A DNA stretch of 64,000 nt from Nocardioides sp. (GTDB taxonomy: Bacteria; Actinomycetota; Actinomycetes; Propionibacteriales; Nocardioidaceae): contig NZ_JAYSFM010000004.1 in NCBI RefSeq assembly GCF_041913365.1, positions 34,348 to 98,347 of the forward strand, in the 5' to 3' direction. The translations under genes and the position numbers were made by a program. Positions 23,655 through 32,411 of the stretch are shown here, in pieces. The notes below the pieces were generated by a model. That model was not told the DNA's origin. It saw only the letters and a program-made list of their open reading frames with translations, and made no database searches. Within the stretch, counting starts at the first letter, position 1. Each line of letters begins with the position of its first letter.

Positions 23655-24325
23655 GAGACGACGGTGACGGTGATCGCCGAGTCGGTGCAGCCGGCGGCGA
23701 CGTCCTGGAGCGCGCCGACCTCGGTCGAGTCGGCCGTGAGGCTCCAGCGGATCTTCGCGGCCACCCACTCCTTGACGTAGCGGCACTGGTTGATCGGCGG
23801 CAGCCACTCGGCGACGTCCTGGTCACCCTTCGAGCGGTTGTAGGAGGCGGTGACGCCGACGAGGCTGCGGGTGTCGCCCATGTCGTTGGCGTACGCCTCG
23901 CGGCGCGCGGCCGTCCAGGTCCGGGCACCCGAGTCCCAGGCCTCGGCGAGCGGGACCAGGTGGTCGATGTCCAGCGCGGAGGCCGAGGTCTGCGACGCGC
24001 CCTCGTAGTAGGAGTACCAGCGGCCGCCGGACAGGCTGCAGCCCGAGCCGATCGTCGGCGCCTCCTCGGCCTCGGAGATGAGCACCTCCTCGCGGGTGTC
24101 GCAGCCGTCGCCGTCGGCGTCGACCCAGTGGTCGAACAGGTCGCGCGAGTAGCCGGTGCGGTCCTCCGTGCCGACCGCGATCGCGGAGATGCCGGTGGTG
24201 AGGGTGCCGCTCCACGTGGAGTCGGCGTGCGCCGACCCCGCGGTGAGGCCGACGAGGGTGCCGGAGAGGAGGAGTGTGCCTGCCGAGGTCGCGAGGACCC
24301 GCCCGAGAGAGATCATGGCGGCCAT
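23651..24325 (-). CDS. Secreted HNH nuclease (DUF1524-like)
   Basis: Signal peptide; CDTREEVL, DIDHLVPLAEAW, NRSKGDQD, WVAAKIRW. Confidence 0.82.
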   Translation of the reverse strand: MAAMISLGRVLATSAGTLLLSGTLVGLTAGSAHADSTWSGTLTTGISAIAVGTEDRTGYSRDLFDHWVDADGDGCDTREEVLISEAEEAPTIGSGCSLSGGRWYSYYEGASQTSASALDIDHLVPLAEAWDSGARTWTAARREAYANDMGDTRSLVGVTASYNRSKGDQDVAEWLPPINQCRYVKEWVAAKIRWSLTADSTEVGALQDVAAGCTDSAITVTVVS

Positions 24326-24399
24326 CCTGTGTTCGCAGGTTCGGCACGGGAACCCTCAAGTTCCTGCACTGCACGGTCCTGCGGGACTACCGTCGATCC

Positions 24400-25257
24400 G
24401 TGTACACGGTCGGTCGTGCCTCACAGCTCACGGGCGTGCCGCGGCAGACGCTCCGCAGCTGGGAGGAGCGCTACGCGCTCGTCGCGCCGCGCCGCTCGCA
24501 GGGCAACTACCGGCTCTACGACGACGAGGCGGTCCGCCGCCTCAGCGTGATGCGAGAGCTGGTCGACGCCGGGTGGGCGCCCCACGAGGCGGCGCGCCGC
24601 ATCGTCGAGGACGTCGCCGCGGCGACCGCGGGGCTGGGCGAGGACGAGGTGACCTTCGACGCGCGGATCGACGACCTCGCCGCCTGCGCGGAGGACTTCG
24701 ACGTGCCGCGGCTGGAGCAGGTGCTGACCGAGGGCTTCGCCCGCCCCGACCTGGCCTCGGTGGTCGACGACTGGCTGCTGCCGTCGCTCGTGCGGCTCGG
24801 CGCGGCGTGGCAGCGCGGCCTGGTGTCCGTGGCCGGTGAGCACTTCGTCACTGCCGCCGCGCACCGCCGTCTCGCGCACGTCTTCCAGACGCTGCCCGCC
24901 GTCCCGCGCGGGGGCCCGCGGGTGGTGACCGGCCTGGCCCGCGGCTCGCGGCACGAGCTCGGCGTGCTGGCGTTCTCGACCGTGCTGCGCTCGCGCGGGG
25001 TCGCGGTGACGTACCTCGGTGGAGACCTGCCGCTGGACGCGTGGGTCGACACCGTGCGCCTGCTGTCGCCGGCCGCCGTCGTCCTCGCCGCCCCGACCTC
25101 CGACGACCTCCCCGCCGTGCGCGACGCCGTGCAGGCGCTGCTGCCGATGACCCGGGTCCTCCTCGGCGGCGCGCACCAGTCCGAGGTCGCCGGCCCCCGC
25201 CACCTCGGGCACCGGGCCGGTGCCGCCGCGGCCGCCCTCGCCGACGAGCTCGCCTGA
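24400..25257 (+). CDS. MerR-family regulator with cobalamin-binding domain (CarH/LitR-like)
   Basis: MerR HTH (LRSWEERY...NYRLY), W-x9-EH (WQRGLVSVAGEH), HELG, TYLG; leaderless TACCGT-6nt-GTG. Confidence 0.85.
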   Translation: MYTVGRASQLTGVPRQTLRSWEERYALVAPRRSQGNYRLYDDEAVRRLSVMRELVDAGWAPHEAARRIVEDVAAATAGLGEDEVTFDARIDDLAACAEDFDVPRLEQVLTEGFARPDLASVVDDWLLPSLVRLGAAWQRGLVSVAGEHFVTAAAHRRLAHVFQTLPAVPRGGPRVVTGLARGSRHELGVLAFSTVLRSRGVAVTYLGGDLPLDAWVDTVRLLSPAAVVLAAPTSDDLPAVRDAVQALLPMTRVLLGGAHQSEVAGPRHLGHRAGAAAAALADELA

Positions 25258-25274
25258 CGACCTCCTTCCCCGGC

Positions 25275-25320
25275 GACGTGTTGCGATCCGTACGCCCCAG
25301 CGACCGCATCGCAACACGTC
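25275..25320. repeat. 46-bp hairpin repeat left of the DUF559-like gene
   Basis: 13-bp perfect stem GACGTGTTGCGAT/ATCGCAACACGTC. Confidence 0.8.
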
Positions 25321-25392
25321 CGCCAGCGAGGCTCTCCACAGATCGCCCAGTCCCTCTGGTGAGCGACCCGACGGTGCACCGACGCTCGGTGG

Positions 25393-26376
25393 ATGGACGA
25401 CCCCGCCGAGCTCCGGAGGCTGCGCGCCCAGCGGATCGCACGCATCGTCGCGACCGCGGGCGAGCAGGGCGGCGTCGTCAGCCTGGCCCAGCTGCACGCG
25501 TTCGGGGTCACCCGTTCGCAGATCCGAGCGCAGGTGTCGGCCCGGCGGTGGCGACGGGTGCACACGCAGGTCGTCGCGGTGCACACCGGACCGTTGTCCG
25601 AGCTCGGGTGCCAATGGGCTGCGGTCCTCGAGGGCGGGCCACAGGCCTACCTCGACGGCGCGTCCGCGCTGATCGCCGAGGGCCTGACCGGGTTCACCTG
25701 TGACGTCATCAGGGTGAGCGTCCCGATGGCCGCGCGGGCGAGGTCTGCGCCAGGGCTGCGGGTGGTCCGCACGCGGCGGTACGCCCCTGCCGCCGTCGTC
25801 CGGTCAGGGGTTCCCCGGGCCCGACCCGACGTCGCTGCGGTGCACGGAGCGCTGTGGGCCACGTCGGACAAGCAGGCGGTCCTGCTGCTGACGATGCCGG
25901 TCCAGCAGGGGCTCACCACCGCACAACGGATCGGGACGTCGCTCCTCCGCGTGCACCGGCACCGCCGGCGTACGTTGCTGCACGCGGCGGTCCTCGACCT
26001 CCTCGACGGCGTCCGCTCGATCAGCGAGGCGGAGTTCGCTGCCGAGTGCCGACGGCGCGGGCTGCCGAAACCGAGCCGGCAGGTGGTCCGCAAGGGCAAG
26101 GACGGCCGCTGCTACCTCGACGTGTACTGGGAGGAGTGGGGCGTCGTCGTGGAGATCGACGGCATCCAGCACTCGTGGGCGGCGAACGTCGTCGCAGACG
26201 CACTGCGCCAGAACGACATCAGCCTGGAGTCCGACGTCGTCCTGCGCCTGCCGCTCCTCGGCCTCCGCGTCGCGGCGGACGACTTCTTCGCCCAGATCAT
26301 CCGCGCGCTCCGCGACCGTGGCTGCCCCCTGGTGGGGACGTGTGACGATCCGGTCGCTGGGACGACCGCCTCGTAA
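25393..26376 (+). CDS. AbiEi-type HTH plus DUF559/Vsr-like PD-(D/E)xK nuclease protein
   Basis: QGGVVSLAQL...RRWRRVH N-terminus; SISEAEF, YLDVYW...VEIDGIQH C-terminus. Confidence 0.72.
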   Translation: MDDPAELRRLRAQRIARIVATAGEQGGVVSLAQLHAFGVTRSQIRAQVSARRWRRVHTQVVAVHTGPLSELGCQWAAVLEGGPQAYLDGASALIAEGLTGFTCDVIRVSVPMAARARSAPGLRVVRTRRYAPAAVVRSGVPRARPDVAAVHGALWATSDKQAVLLLTMPVQQGLTTAQRIGTSLLRVHRHRRRTLLHAAVLDLLDGVRSISEAEFAAECRRRGLPKPSRQVVRKGKDGRCYLDVYWEEWGVVVEIDGIQHSWAANVVADALRQNDISLESDVVLRLPLLGLRVAADDFFAQIIRALRDRGCPLVGTCDDPVAGTTAS

Positions 26377-26382
26377 CACGTC
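26337..26382. repeat. 46-bp hairpin, inverted copy of 25275-25320, containing the DUF559 stop codon
   Basis: Reverse complement matches the left hairpin at 37/46 nt. Confidence 0.8.
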
Positions 26383-26392
26383 GCGGACGGGG

Positions 26393-28087
<1,695 letters not shown>

Positions 28088-32198: not shown

Positions 32199-32411
32199 AA
32201 GGTGGCGGCAGATCGCATCGGGAAGCCTCGTGGGGGTGTGGTGTGCCGCCACCTTCGGGTGGCGGTCGATGAGGGTGGCGGCAGATCGCATCGGGAAGCC
32301 TCGTGGGGGGTGTGGTGTGCCGCCACCTTCGGGTGGCGGTCGATGAGGGTGGCGGCAGATCGCATCGGAAAGCCCTGTGCGGGTGTCGTGTGCCGCCACC
32401 TTCAGGTGGCG
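32199..32411. repeat. Tandem array of three 73-74-bp palindromic units
   Basis: Units begin at 32201, 32274 and 32348; each has GGTGGCGGCA...TGCCGCCACC arms, and units 1-2 add a CCGCCACC-TTCG-GGTGGCGG hairpin (degenerate in unit 3). Confidence 0.9.

What the first reader, a model, noticed from the sequence alone, without database searches (positions are those of the whole stretch)
25275..26382. DUF559/AbiEi-like nuclease gene enclosed by an inverted pair of 46-bp hairpins: candidate REP-associated mobile unit
The left hairpin (25275-25320) and the reverse complement of the right hairpin (26337-26382) are both 46 bp and match at 37/46. The gene's stop lies in the right hairpin. The 1.1-kb unit sits between unrelated genes, with no DDE/HUH transposase and no visible target duplication. 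The layout parallels RAYT genes flanked by REPs, but with a Vsr-like PD-(D/E)xK protein. Inference: this very common actinobacterial gene type may spread, or be spread with, its own hairpin family.
Basis: partly seen in the sequence, partly recalled or inferred. Interest (0 to 1): 0.62.

Follow-up and report, generated by a model that had tools for sequence, protein, structure and literature searches.

The report
Nuclease gene framed by own palindromes
A Nocardioides gene for a DNA-binding nuclease lies between two copies of a 46-base palindrome whose few scattered copies occur almost only in genomes that keep this gene, much like the REP/RAYT repeat-and-enzyme partnerships but with an unrelated enzyme.

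Summary
Two 46-nt hairpins (25275-25320, 26337-26382; 37/46 matches in inverted register, 35/46 in direct register) bracket a 327-aa gene whose stop codon lies in the right hairpin.

The protein is a complete AbiEi-type DNA-binding module (residues about 13-191) fused to a DUF559/Vsr-like nuclease with conserved D243/E254/D256/H260. The palindrome has the geometry of a published AbiEi operator: two arms of about 22 bp.

The layout is general:
- At least 20 of 28 homologue loci carry a cognate palindrome on both sides.
- Six of the 7 family genes in this genome are each bracketed by their own palindrome family.
- Arm sequence follows the protein clades.

In 151 Nocardioides genomes two palindrome families each track their own gene. 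The window's family has 6-10 copies in the four genomes with a protein of at least 75% identity, and 0-4 elsewhere. One orphan exception occurs in the second family.

Scattered copies lie about 27 nt after stop codons. Between close relatives they are gained, lost, or replaced in place by another family.

The gene itself is single-copy and fixed beside the fumarase 3' end across its clade, and it has been lost repeatedly. It is therefore REPtron-like, not a hopping cassette. Binding and cutting remain untested. I found no published description.

The parts
25275..25320 (.). Left 46-nt palindrome (A family, GACGTGTTGCGAT...ATCGCAACACGTC). It starts 17 nt after the LitR-like stop and ends 72 nt before the gene's start codon. 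Likely binding site (operator) of the gene's AbiEi module and insulator/terminator for the upstream gene.
   Evidence: dG -23.3, z -6.9. It is 87-89% conserved in three orthologous units, while the adjacent spacers are 31-47% conserved. Across 72 units the upstream hairpin ends a median of 72 nt before the start codon.
25335..25344 (+). Conserved box TCCACAGATC between the left palindrome and the start codon. Candidate promoter element (-35-like TCCACA).
   Evidence: Columns are invariant in the alignment of six orthologous upstream regions. The sigma-70 consensus scan found nothing, so the function is inferred only.
25393..26376 (+). 327-aa AbiEi-DUF559 fusion gene (the A lineage).
   Evidence: (AF2 pLDDT 89, pTM 0.82).
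25429..25965 (+). AbiEi-like DNA-binding module (winged helix plus second domain), residues about 13-191.
   Evidence: PADLOC AbiEi models match residues 15-191 at E 3e-13. Foldseek matches AbiEi 6Y8Q at E 3.6e-6 and Rv2827c 1ZEL at E 5.9e-5.
26005..26322 (+). DUF559/Vsr-like PD-(D/E)xK nuclease domain, residues about 205-310, with D243, E254, D256, G257, H260 and R285.
   Evidence: The profile of 61 homologues matches PDB 3HRL at E 9e-7 over residues 230-308. The invariant and near-invariant columns are listed.
26337..26382 (.). Right 46-nt palindrome (A family). It encodes the last 13 residues and the stop codon of the gene and ends 10 nt before the fumarase stop. Likely second binding site and bidirectional terminator.
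   Evidence: It is 85-93% conserved in orthologues. Across 72 units the downstream hairpin starts a median of 1 nt after the stop codon.
24274..25257 (+). Left neighbour: a MerR-HTH plus B12-binding (LitR/CarH-like) regulator. Not part of the unit.
   Evidence: Pfam MerR_1, B12-binding_2 and B12-binding. In G068 and G023 its stop lies 3-6 nt from the fumarase stop, with nothing between them.
26393..28087 (-). Right neighbour: class I fumarate hydratase. It is the conserved anchor of the unit's position.
   Evidence: Pfam Fumerase and Fumerase_C. A-lineage and sister-clade genes in 9 other genomes are all convergent to its 3' end.

Best explanation
This is a REPtron-like partnership built on a different enzyme. 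The gene encodes an AbiEi-type sequence reader fused to a Vsr/DUF559-type nuclease. The 46-bp palindrome consists of two arms of about 21 bp, the same geometry as the known AbiEi operator, and is the protein's cognate site.

At its own locus, the upstream copy lies just before the putative promoter and would serve as an autoregulatory operator and an insulator against read-through from the LitR-like gene. The downstream copy overlaps the stop codon and would close transcription of both convergent genes.

Elsewhere in the genome, the same palindrome sits a few bases after the stop codons of host genes, as a small REP-like population (4 solos here). That population persists, turns over and changes sequence only in lineages that keep the gene. 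I infer that the nuclease domain, tethered at a bound palindrome, nicks or cuts there. Repair would then copy, symmetrise or replace palindromes in these 3'-end slots.

The gene itself does not move. It is single-copy, vertically inherited beside fumarase, and repeatedly lost.

Shown: the anatomy, the domain identities, the generality of the bracket, the clade-specific arms, the gene-repeat co-occurrence, the 3'-end placement, and the gain, loss and swap of solos.

Inferred: binding, cleavage, and the link between cleavage and palindrome propagation.
For: 1. The bracket is far beyond chance and general. The random-position null reaches at most 36. Twenty of 28 homologue loci from five families of the order score at least 45. 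Strong hairpins lie on both sides in 53 of 72 units. Six of the 7 family genes in this genome are each bracketed by a different palindrome family.

2. The protein is an AbiEi module plus a DUF559 nuclease with conserved catalytic residues. The published AbiEi operator is two 23-bp inverted repeats 3 nt apart at the -35 element (PMC3985639).

3. Arm sequence is specific to protein clades. In orthologous units the palindromes are 85-93% conserved while the abutting spacers are 31-60% conserved.

4. Repeat and gene go together.
- A-type palindromes: 6, 6, 10 and 6-7 copies in the only four of 151 genomes with a protein of at least 75% identity; 4 copies where the gene is a pseudogene; 0-3 copies in the other 146; reversed-pattern control 0-1.
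- F5 family: 27, 15, 15, 9 and 5 copies in the five genomes with a protein of at least 72% identity, all five genes bracketed by F5 palindromes; 140 genomes have none.
- Cross-specificity: G056 has the F5 gene with 9 F5 and 0 A copies. G158 has the A gene with 10 A and 3 F5 copies.
- On the EttA tree, gene-bearing and gene-less genomes interleave. All 5 independent contrasts (3 for A, 2 for F5) go the expected way.

5. Solos behave like REPs. They lie a median of 27 nt from a stop codon. Convergent spacers are enriched and divergent spacers depleted. They are present or absent at orthologous sites. They are swapped in place for another family between close relatives, and their arms change symmetrically on both sides.

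6. The gene is single-copy, sits in the same extragenic site, and is lost repeatedly. These are the hallmarks described for RAYTs (bioRxiv 10.1101/2021.07.10.451892).
Against: - There is no experimental or read-level evidence of binding, cutting or movement.
- Copy numbers are small (4 solos for this family), far below REP/REPIN populations.
- One clear exception: G156 holds 14 F5 palindromes without a cognate gene. G053, G128 and G164 keep 1-2 A-type copies without the gene.
- The phylogenetic contrasts are too few for significance (3 and 2 pairs), and the species tree rests on one gene.
- An earlier check of the same claim on another genome of this scan came out against the repeat going with the gene.
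- In the A lineage the left and right palindromes are each closer to their orthologues than to one another, so there is no ongoing homogenisation between them.
- Conservation, co-evolution and loss of solos after gene loss would also follow from a pure binding-site (regulatory) role.
Confidence: 0.5

Rival explanations
1. Pure regulation. The palindromes are only operators of an autoregulated AbiEi-like protein. The two flanking copies loop or insulate a potentially toxic nuclease gene and double as terminators. The scattered copies are extra binding sites or decoys kept by selection while the protein exists. The nuclease acts on something else, such as repair or foreign DNA, and plays no part in spreading the palindromes.
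For: AbiEi and Rv2827c are autorepressors that bind inverted repeats of just this geometry (PMC3985639; PMC7319586, listed). The upstream copy abuts the putative promoter. The model explains palindrome conservation, clade-specific arms, and decay of solos after gene loss without any mobility.
Against: A 46-bp palindrome cannot arise at new sites by point mutation. Yet solos appear, disappear and are swapped for another family at orthologous sites between close relatives. Solos lie just after stop codons and are depleted in divergent (promoter) spacers, which is REP-like rather than operator-like. The nuclease catalytic residues are invariant across the family, so cutting is under selection.
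Confidence: 0.22
2. Selfish mobile or homing cassette. The whole unit (palindrome, gene, palindrome) moves or is copied into empty alleles. The nuclease cuts the empty site or the unit's ends, as free-standing Vsr-like (EDxHD) homing endonucleases do.
For: Empty alleles have the two flanking stop codons 3-6 nt apart and no remnant (G068, G023). Three states occur at one site among close relatives: A lineage, a 53%-identical B lineage with another palindrome, and empty. Members of several protein clades sit at the fumarase 3' end in 12 of 50 genomes. The Vsr/DUF559 group includes a group I intron homing endonuclease (PMC3424549; weak 3R3P match).
Against: There are no near-identical second copies within a genome; the nearest paralogue is 59% identical. 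There is no target duplication. The A lineage and its sister clade occupy the same site and orientation in 9 other genomes, with protein divergence (93% down to about 63% identity) ordered roughly as the hosts' fumarase divergence. This fits descent plus loss. The left neighbour varies while the unit stays put.
Confidence: 0.13
3. Defence or toxin-antitoxin-like module. A single-chain AbiEi (antitoxin/regulator) plus nuclease (toxin or restriction-like effector) acts against phage or plasmid DNA. The palindromes are its regulatory or self-marking sites.
For: The N-terminal two-thirds matches AbiEi models of the PADLOC defence library (E 3e-13). The C-terminus weakly matches a methyl-directed restriction enzyme model (E 3e-4) and PvuRts1I (E 0.03).
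Against: There is no AbiEii/DUF1814 partner and no neighbouring defence gene. The gene sits between housekeeping genes, not in a defence island. The model explains neither the scattered cognate palindromes at 3' ends of host genes nor their in-place swaps.
Confidence: 0.08
4. Programmed inversion. The flanking inverted repeats let the gene flip, as suggested by the enrichment of 'DUF559 domain-containing protein' among predicted inversion targets.
For: PMC9881135 lists DUF559 proteins with an odds ratio of 14 among predicted programmed-inversion targets. The two arms do form a 49-nt inverted repeat.
Against: The gene is convergent to fumarase in all ten loci of the A and sister clades, this window included. 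No recombinase gene is adjacent. Because each arm is itself a palindrome, any bracketed gene would be flagged by an inverted-repeat screen. Family-wide, the direct orientation is at least as common.
Confidence: 0.03
5. Coincidence of independent REP-like terminators. The palindromes spread on their own, or by some other enzyme, into 3'-end spacers. The spacers on either side of this gene simply collected one each.
For: This genome holds at least 10 long palindrome families, mostly just after stop codons.
Against: Both sides carry the same family in 6 of 7 paralogues, each with a different family, and in at least 20 of 28 loci in relatives. Arm type follows the protein tree. Each family's presence follows its own gene.
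Confidence: 0.03

Closest known systems
REP/REPIN-RAYT systems ('REPtrons') of Proteobacteria
   Same: A single-copy, vertically inherited gene sits in a fixed extragenic site and is bracketed by copies of a palindromic repeat. The same repeat is scattered in extragenic DNA near 3' ends of genes. There is one repeat family per gene, and several families can coexist in one genome. The repeats dwindle where the gene is lost, and recent losers still hold many (10.1101/2021.07.10.451892; PMC3116915; this work).
   Different: The enzyme is unrelated: an AbiEi winged-helix module plus a Vsr/DUF559 PD-(D/E)xK nuclease instead of an HUH-Y1 transposase. The repeat is a long (46 bp) two-arm palindrome of operator geometry without a GTAG tag. 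Copy numbers are in the units to tens, not hundreds. The orientation of the flanking copies is not fixed. No biochemical link between the enzyme and the repeat has been shown.
AbiEi / Rv2827c antitoxin-repressors of type IV AbiE (MenAT) toxin-antitoxin systems
   Same: The N-terminal 190 residues are a full AbiEi homologue. The cognate DNA is a pair of inverted repeats of about 22 bp next to the promoter, as in S. agalactiae abiE.
   Different: There is no AbiEii/DUF1814 toxin gene. The module is fused to a nuclease. The site is present on both sides of the gene and at other loci.
DUF559 / Vsr very-short-patch-repair endonuclease group, including the EDxHD homing endonuclease I-Bth0305I
   Same: The C-terminal domain matches the DUF559 structure 3HRL by profile (E 9e-7) and keeps the D...ExDG..H motif. 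The group contains a mobile-intron homing enzyme.
   Different: There is no partner cytosine methyltransferase and no intron or intein context. The long AbiEi reader and the flanking palindromes are absent from those enzymes.
CGTC-tagged REPs (Di Nocera et al. 2013, PMC3733652)
   Same: These are palindromic repeats ending in ...CGTC, lying downstream of genes and reported to lack a dedicated transposase. The palindromes here end in ...ACGTC.
   Different: CGTC REPs have 8-9-bp stems and were described in Proteobacteria and four other phyla, none of them Actinobacteria. No gene association is known for them. The resemblance of the termini may be fortuitous, and I did not test it.

Membership tests
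DUF559 / Vsr-like PD-(D/E)xK nuclease | Sequence match to the family profile | tested here: met
   The single sequence against Pfam DUF559 gives only E 0.099, below the cut-off. The profile of 61 homologues matches the DUF559 structure 3HRL at E 9.3e-7 over residues 230-308.
DUF559 / Vsr-like PD-(D/E)xK nuclease | Conserved catalytic acidic residues and His (D...E-x-D-G-x-x-H) | tested here: met
   D243, E254 and G257 are invariant. D256, H260 and R285 are at least 90% conserved in 61 sequences of 26-93% identity.
DUF559 / Vsr-like PD-(D/E)xK nuclease | Restriction-endonuclease-like alpha/beta fold | tested here: inconclusive
   The AF2 model is confident (pLDDT 89) with a beta-beta-beta-alpha core at residues 229-308. 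Whole-chain Foldseek ranks 3HRL at only E 1.7, TM 0.51 on the target. The domain was not searched alone.
DUF559 / Vsr-like PD-(D/E)xK nuclease | Metal-dependent DNA nicking or cleavage | not testable with these tools
   Needs a biochemical assay.
AbiEi (type IV TA antitoxin/repressor) | Winged-helix N-domain plus AbiEi C-domain | tested here: met
   PADLOC AbiEi matches residues 15-191 at E 3.3e-13. Foldseek matches 6Y8Q at E 3.6e-6 and 1ZEL at E 5.9e-5.
AbiEi (type IV TA antitoxin/repressor) | Operon partner AbiEii (DUF1814 nucleotidyltransferase toxin) | tested here: not met
   The gene is monocistronic between a LitR-like gene and fumarase. It is therefore not an AbiE system.
AbiEi (type IV TA antitoxin/repressor) | Binds paired inverted repeats at its own promoter | not testable with these tools
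   A 46-bp two-arm palindrome lies 72 nt upstream of the start codon, with geometry like the 49-bp abiE operator. Binding was not assayed.
REPtron (REP/REPIN-RAYT) | HUH-Y1 (IS200-like) transposase | tested here: not met
   There is no such domain. The protein is AbiEi plus DUF559. It is therefore not a member, only an analogue.
REPtron (REP/REPIN-RAYT) | Gene bracketed by its cognate repeat | tested here: met
REPtron (REP/REPIN-RAYT) | Repeat scattered in extragenic space, near 3' ends | tested here: met
   This family has four solos and F5 has 13. The median distance from a stop codon is 27 nt. Copy numbers are low.
REPtron (REP/REPIN-RAYT) | Single copy, same extragenic site, vertical descent | tested here: met
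   There is one A-lineage gene per genome. It is always at the fumarase 3' end. The protein tree is broadly in line with the EttA tree, though not rigorously tested.
REPtron (REP/REPIN-RAYT) | Repeat population depends on the gene | tested here: inconclusive
   The association is strong in two families across 151 genomes, and all 5 independent contrasts agree. There is one orphan population (G156, F5), too few contrasts for significance, and only a one-gene species tree.
Insertion sequence / transposon | Transposase, target-site duplication, multiple near-identical copies | tested here: not met
   There is no transposase domain. No direct repeat lies outside the hairpins. The nearest paralogue is 59% identical.
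Free-standing homing endonuclease gene | Presence/absence polymorphism at one conserved site, with cleavage of the empty allele | tested here: inconclusive
   The polymorphism and the fixed site are shown. Cleavage is untestable here, and the pattern fits loss as well as gain.
Inverton (programmed inversion) | Both orientations occur; a recombinase is nearby | tested here: not met
   The orientation is the same in all ten loci, this window included. No recombinase ORF is adjacent.

The most novel reading that the evidence does not exclude
AbiEi-Vsr fusion nucleases and their palindromes would form a second, enzymatically unrelated class of REPIN/RAYT-like intragenomic replicators in Actinobacteria. 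Each genome would host several co-resident families, each with its own single-copy nuclease. The nuclease would read about 22-bp half-sites on duplex DNA and cut there. Repair would then copy its palindrome into, or over, the palindromes that occupy terminator 'slots' behind host genes. Families would thus compete for slots, which would explain the in-place swaps seen between close relatives.
Probability: 0.3. Interest if true: 0.85.

Novelty: new variant of a known kind. Interest (0 to 1): 0.64.

Why it matters
REP-like palindromes are widespread, but only the GTAG type has a known maker (RAYT). Other types, and those of high-GC Gram-positives, are orphans. AbiEi-DUF559 proteins are among the commonest uncharacterised gene types in Actinobacteria, and I found nothing in print that explains them: only 25 papers in the library mention DUF559, and none describes this layout.

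A protein-repeat partnership would give this gene family a function. It would explain the origin of actinobacterial palindromic repeats that sit behind genes and probably act as terminators. It would also offer a second, independent test case for the idea of vertically inherited replicators nested in bacterial genomes.

The partnership is directly testable: a 46-bp site, a 327-aa protein and four catalytic residues. The readers might be re-usable as programmable binders of long palindromes.

Tried and rejected
- Rfam scan of the region: only a chance miRNA match (E 0.42).
- NCBIfam: no hit.
- Sigma-70 promoter and intrinsic-terminator scans: nothing. The hairpins lack T-tracts.
The single protein was used instead.
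I could therefore make no read-level test for excision, inversion or heterogeneity.
- A brute-force palindrome scan timed out and was replaced by an indexed scan.
- My first palindrome finder was too strict for bulged stems and was replaced by left/right local alignment and folding.
- The loci returned by the genome search are not flipped to the gene's strand. This gave truncated proteins and was corrected.
- Two ORFs enclosed by pairs of F2 and F6 palindromes could not be assigned. Pfam and PADLOC found nothing. hhalign against the family profile gave E 2e-4 and 0.68. The single-sequence AF2 model of the F2 ORF was useless (pLDDT 36).
- Insertion into a pre-existing hairpin with duplication of the target was considered and rejected for this site, because the empty alleles carry no hairpin.
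- Ongoing homogenisation between the left and right copies was also rejected for the A lineage: each side is closer to its orthologues than to its partner.
Full report
**1. The observation**

The window lies in a Nocardioides genome. The closest named relatives of the gene are in Nocardioides sp. BE266 (93% protein identity) and sp. Root122 (86%).

- The sequence at 25275-25320 and 26337-26382 is as described.
- The repeat finder reports inverted arms 25273-25321 and 26336-26384, 49 nt long and 82% complementary. Each arm is also reported as a palindrome in itself.
- As single-stranded DNA the arms fold at -23.3 kcal/mol (z -6.9) and -19.9 kcal/mol (z -3.5).
The orientation call therefore rests on the loop and two stem positions.
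- The ORF 25393-26376 (327 aa) ends with a TAA inside the right hairpin. Its last 13 residues are encoded by that hairpin.
- The neighbours are a MerR/B12-binding regulator gene and a class I fumarase gene.
- At 400 random genome positions with the same geometry, the best match between an upstream stretch and the reverse complement of a downstream stretch never exceeded 36. The score here is 53.

**2. The protein**

Pfam gives only sub-threshold hits: AbiEi_4 at E 0.056 and DUF559 at E 0.099. Stronger evidence comes from other searches.

- PADLOC AbiEi models match residues 15-191 at E 3e-13.
- A profile of 61 homologues matches the DUF559 crystal structure 3HRL at E 9e-7 over residues 230-308.
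- The AF2 model is confident (pLDDT 89, pTM 0.82). It matches AbiEi of S. agalactiae (6Y8Q, E 3.6e-6) and Rv2827c (1ZEL, E 5.9e-5).
- D243, E254 and G257 are invariant, and D256, H260 and R285 nearly so, across 26-93% identity.

The protein is thus a complete AbiEi-type DNA reader fused to a Vsr/DUF559 nuclease that is under purifying selection. There is no AbiEii partner.

The published AbiEi operator is two 23-bp inverted repeats separated by 3 nt (49 bp in all) at the -35 element (PMC3985639). The 46-bp palindrome here has the same architecture. This makes it the natural candidate site for the protein, read as duplex DNA with one reader per arm. This step is an inference.

**3. Generality of the bracket**

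- Homologues (28-63% identity) occur in 27 of 41 related genomes of five families of the order.
- In 20 of 28 independent loci, the upstream 500 nt and the downstream 450 nt share a 40-100-nt palindromic repeat scoring at least 45, above every null value. Two further loci have clear but more diverged pairs.
- By folding, 53 of 72 units have a strong hairpin on both sides. The upstream hairpin ends a median of 72 nt before the start codon (IQR 59-105). The downstream hairpin starts a median of 1 nt after the stop codon (IQR -26 to +22).
- Orientation is mixed: direct scores better at 15 loci and inverted at 12, with one tie. The rule is 'the same palindrome on both sides', not 'an inverted pair'.
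- The arm sequence differs between loci and follows the protein tree:
  - GACGTGTKRCGAT in the window's clade.
  - GACGTCCGACG in its sister clade.
  - GACGTCATGG and GACGTCATACGG in further Nocardioides clades.
  - CCGACTTGTCAGA, GGGGAGACTTACGGG and others in other genera.
- Within this genome an HMM of the family finds 7 genes. Six are bracketed by a palindrome family of their own, all six different.

**4. History at this locus**

I anchored on the fumarase gene in 50 genomes of the genus and found three states.

- A family member sits at the fumarase 3' end in 12 genomes.
- The site is empty in G068 and G023, with the LitR and fumarase stop codons 3 and 6 nt apart and no hairpin.
- The site holds other short sequence in G054 and G056.

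All A-lineage genes (G156/Root122, G158, G070, BE266, one MAG) and the sister clade (G015, G076, one MAG) lie at this same site, convergent to fumarase.

On an EttA gene tree, gene-bearing genomes fall in all three subclades of a 13-genome clade, next to gene-less sisters. That requires 4 changes of state. With the site fixed and protein divergence ordered roughly as host divergence, descent with repeated loss is the simplest reading. Re-gain by homologous exchange cannot be excluded. G053 carries a 53%-identical gene with another palindrome at the same site, which shows that some exchange occurs.

In orthologous units the two palindromes are 85-93% identical while the spacers that abut them are 31-60% identical. 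The edges of conservation coincide with the outer ends of the palindromes.

There is no second near-identical copy in the genome; the nearest paralogue is 59% identical. So the gene is not a hopping element.

**5. Whether the repeat goes with the gene**

It is also the point on which an earlier check elsewhere in this scan came out negative.

I searched 151 Nocardioides genomes with a full-length two-arm pattern, at most 2 mismatches, and a reversed-pattern control (0-1 hits per genome).

*A family*
- 6, 6, 10 and 6-7 copies in G000, G156, G158 and G070. These are the only genomes with a protein of at least 75% identity.
- 4 copies in G059, whose gene is frameshifted.
- 3 copies in a fragmented sister assembly.
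- 0-2 copies in all other genomes, including the gene-less close relatives G068, G023, G054 and G056, which have 0 each.

*F5 family, a replicate with a second family of this genome (ACACGTGTCCG-N35-41-CGGACACGTGT; its gene at C1:224714-225637 is bracketed by two copies)*
- 27, 15, 15, 9 and 5 copies in the five genomes with a protein of at least 72% identity. All five genes are bracketed by F5 palindromes.
- 140 genomes have none.
- G156 has 14 copies although its nearest protein (62%) is bracketed by a different palindrome. This is an orphan population.

The two families are distributed differently over the same genomes:
- G056: F5 gene, 9 F5 copies, 0 A copies.
- G158: A gene, 10 A copies, 3 F5 copies.
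- G077: F5 gene, 15 F5 copies, 0 A copies.

The signal is therefore not simply that some genomes are repeat-rich.

Phylogenetically independent contrasts all agree (3 of 3 for A, 2 of 2 for F5), but they are too few for significance. The naive rank tests give p 0.0015 and 0.006.

**6. The solo copies**

- The four solos of the A family and the members of nine other long-palindrome families of this genome (115 elements) lie a median of 27 nt from a stop codon, and 57% lie within 30 nt. This uses rough GC3-based gene calls.
- There are 32 elements in convergent, 58 in tandem and 11 in divergent spacers. The background is 302, 1046 and 378. This is REP-like, terminator-side placement, not promoter placement.
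- Solos are present or absent at orthologous sites:
  - SSB-like|EttA spacer: present in G000, G053 and G158; absent in six relatives.
  - Transporter|tRNA spacer: present in five genomes; replaced by an ordinary hairpin in G023.
- I traced the solos of BE266 and G156 back to G000 using flanks of 85-95% identity. At two slots the relative carries an A-type palindrome where G000 carries, at the same position, a palindrome of another family: F10 at C9:85889 and F7 at C9:124810.
- At the transporter slot the core is identical, but three outer-arm positions differ on both arms in a compensatory way.

Such changes within so little flank divergence point to an active process at the palindromes. That the nuclease drives this process is inferred, not shown.

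**7. Comparison with what is known**

The closest analogue is the REP/REPIN-RAYT system:
- a single-copy, vertically inherited gene in a fixed extragenic site;
- a bracket of its own repeat, with one family per gene;
- repeat decay after gene loss, with recent losers still rich in repeats.

Membership fails on the defining enzyme: there is no HUH-Y1 domain. The DNA-reading half is a true AbiEi homologue, but the AbiE toxin partner is absent. The cutting half belongs to the DUF559/Vsr group, which includes a homing endonuclease.

The only printed link I found between DUF559 genes and flanking inverted repeats is one table row on predicted inversions (PMC9881135). The constant orientation seen here argues against inversion.

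Full-text searches for DUF559 with palindrome, hairpin, repeat or mobile terms found no description of this layout.

Earlier notes of this scan report the same layout in at least 93 other genomes. They are unchecked AI notes. They agree with the anatomy, and one later check kept the observation but priced the 'nuclease propagates the repeat' reading low.

**8. Verdict**

This is a gene-palindrome partnership of REPtron type with an unrelated enzyme, not a mobile 1.1-kb unit.
  - the operator-geometry argument;
  - two family-specific co-occurrence tests with cross-specificity;
  - the fixed fumarase-side position with repeated loss;
  - the 3'-end placement statistics;
  - the in-place swaps of palindrome family.
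- Binding, cutting and any causal role of the nuclease remain untested.

Noticed in passing
G000 contig C9:85875-85970 and C9:124799-124870 (outside the window); loci L191, L195, L198: In-place swap of palindrome family at orthologous 3'-end slots. BE266 and G156 carry an A-type 46-nt palindrome where this genome carries, at the same position, an F10-type (AACGTCATACGG...) palindrome, and at the second slot (G156 only) an F7-type (GATCCGTCATCCGG...) palindrome. The flanks are 85-95% identical.
   Followed up: partly
window 32201-32253 and 32273-32300: A copy of the genome's most abundant long palindrome family, F2 (GGTGGCGGC...GCCGCCACC, 26 copies), followed by the start of a second copy. Elsewhere (C5:143606/144895) a pair of F2 copies encloses a 324-aa ORF with an 'ES..E ... 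EYDG..H' nuclease-like motif. That ORF has no Pfam or PADLOC hit; hhalign against the family profile gives E 2e-4.
   Followed up: partly
whole genome G000: There are at least 10 distinct families of 40-66-nt palindromes with 6-26 copies each. Examples: TCCAGTGGCAGATGGTCGTC (19 copies), CGGTGGTCCACCTACATTC (14), ACACGTGTCCGAGA (13), GGGTAGTTAGGGACG (12). Two families start with GGTAG. A pair of the GGGTAGTTAGGG family (C10:115751/117027) encloses a 355-aa ORF of unknown family.
   Followed up: partly
G000 C4:301363-301408 (outside the window); loci L167-L178, L199: A solo A-type palindrome sits between a transporter stop codon and the promoter of a tRNA gene. It is conserved at this site in five genomes. 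Between G000 and BE266 the core is identical, but three outer-arm positions differ on both arms in a compensatory way.
   Followed up: partly
G000 C1:840125-840250 (outside the window): Two palindromes of different families (GGACGTCATACGG... and GACGTGTGACGAA...) lie 33 nt apart in an 820-nt spacer. They are clustered like REP arrays.
   Followed up: no
window 26337-26376: The last 13 residues of the A-lineage protein (GTCDDPVAGTTAS) are encoded by the right palindrome. Other lineages end earlier, so the reading frame has run into the repeat.
   Followed up: partly
window 24274-24400: The listed start of the LitR-like ORF is probably too far upstream, because the MerR helix-turn-helix begins at residue 44 of the 327-aa ORF.
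   Followed up: no
loci L054 (G059), L077/L025/L037 (G019), L049 (G067): At the same fumarase-side site, some species carry frameshifted or truncated remnants of the gene. G059 still has 4 A-type palindromes elsewhere in its genome.
   Followed up: partly
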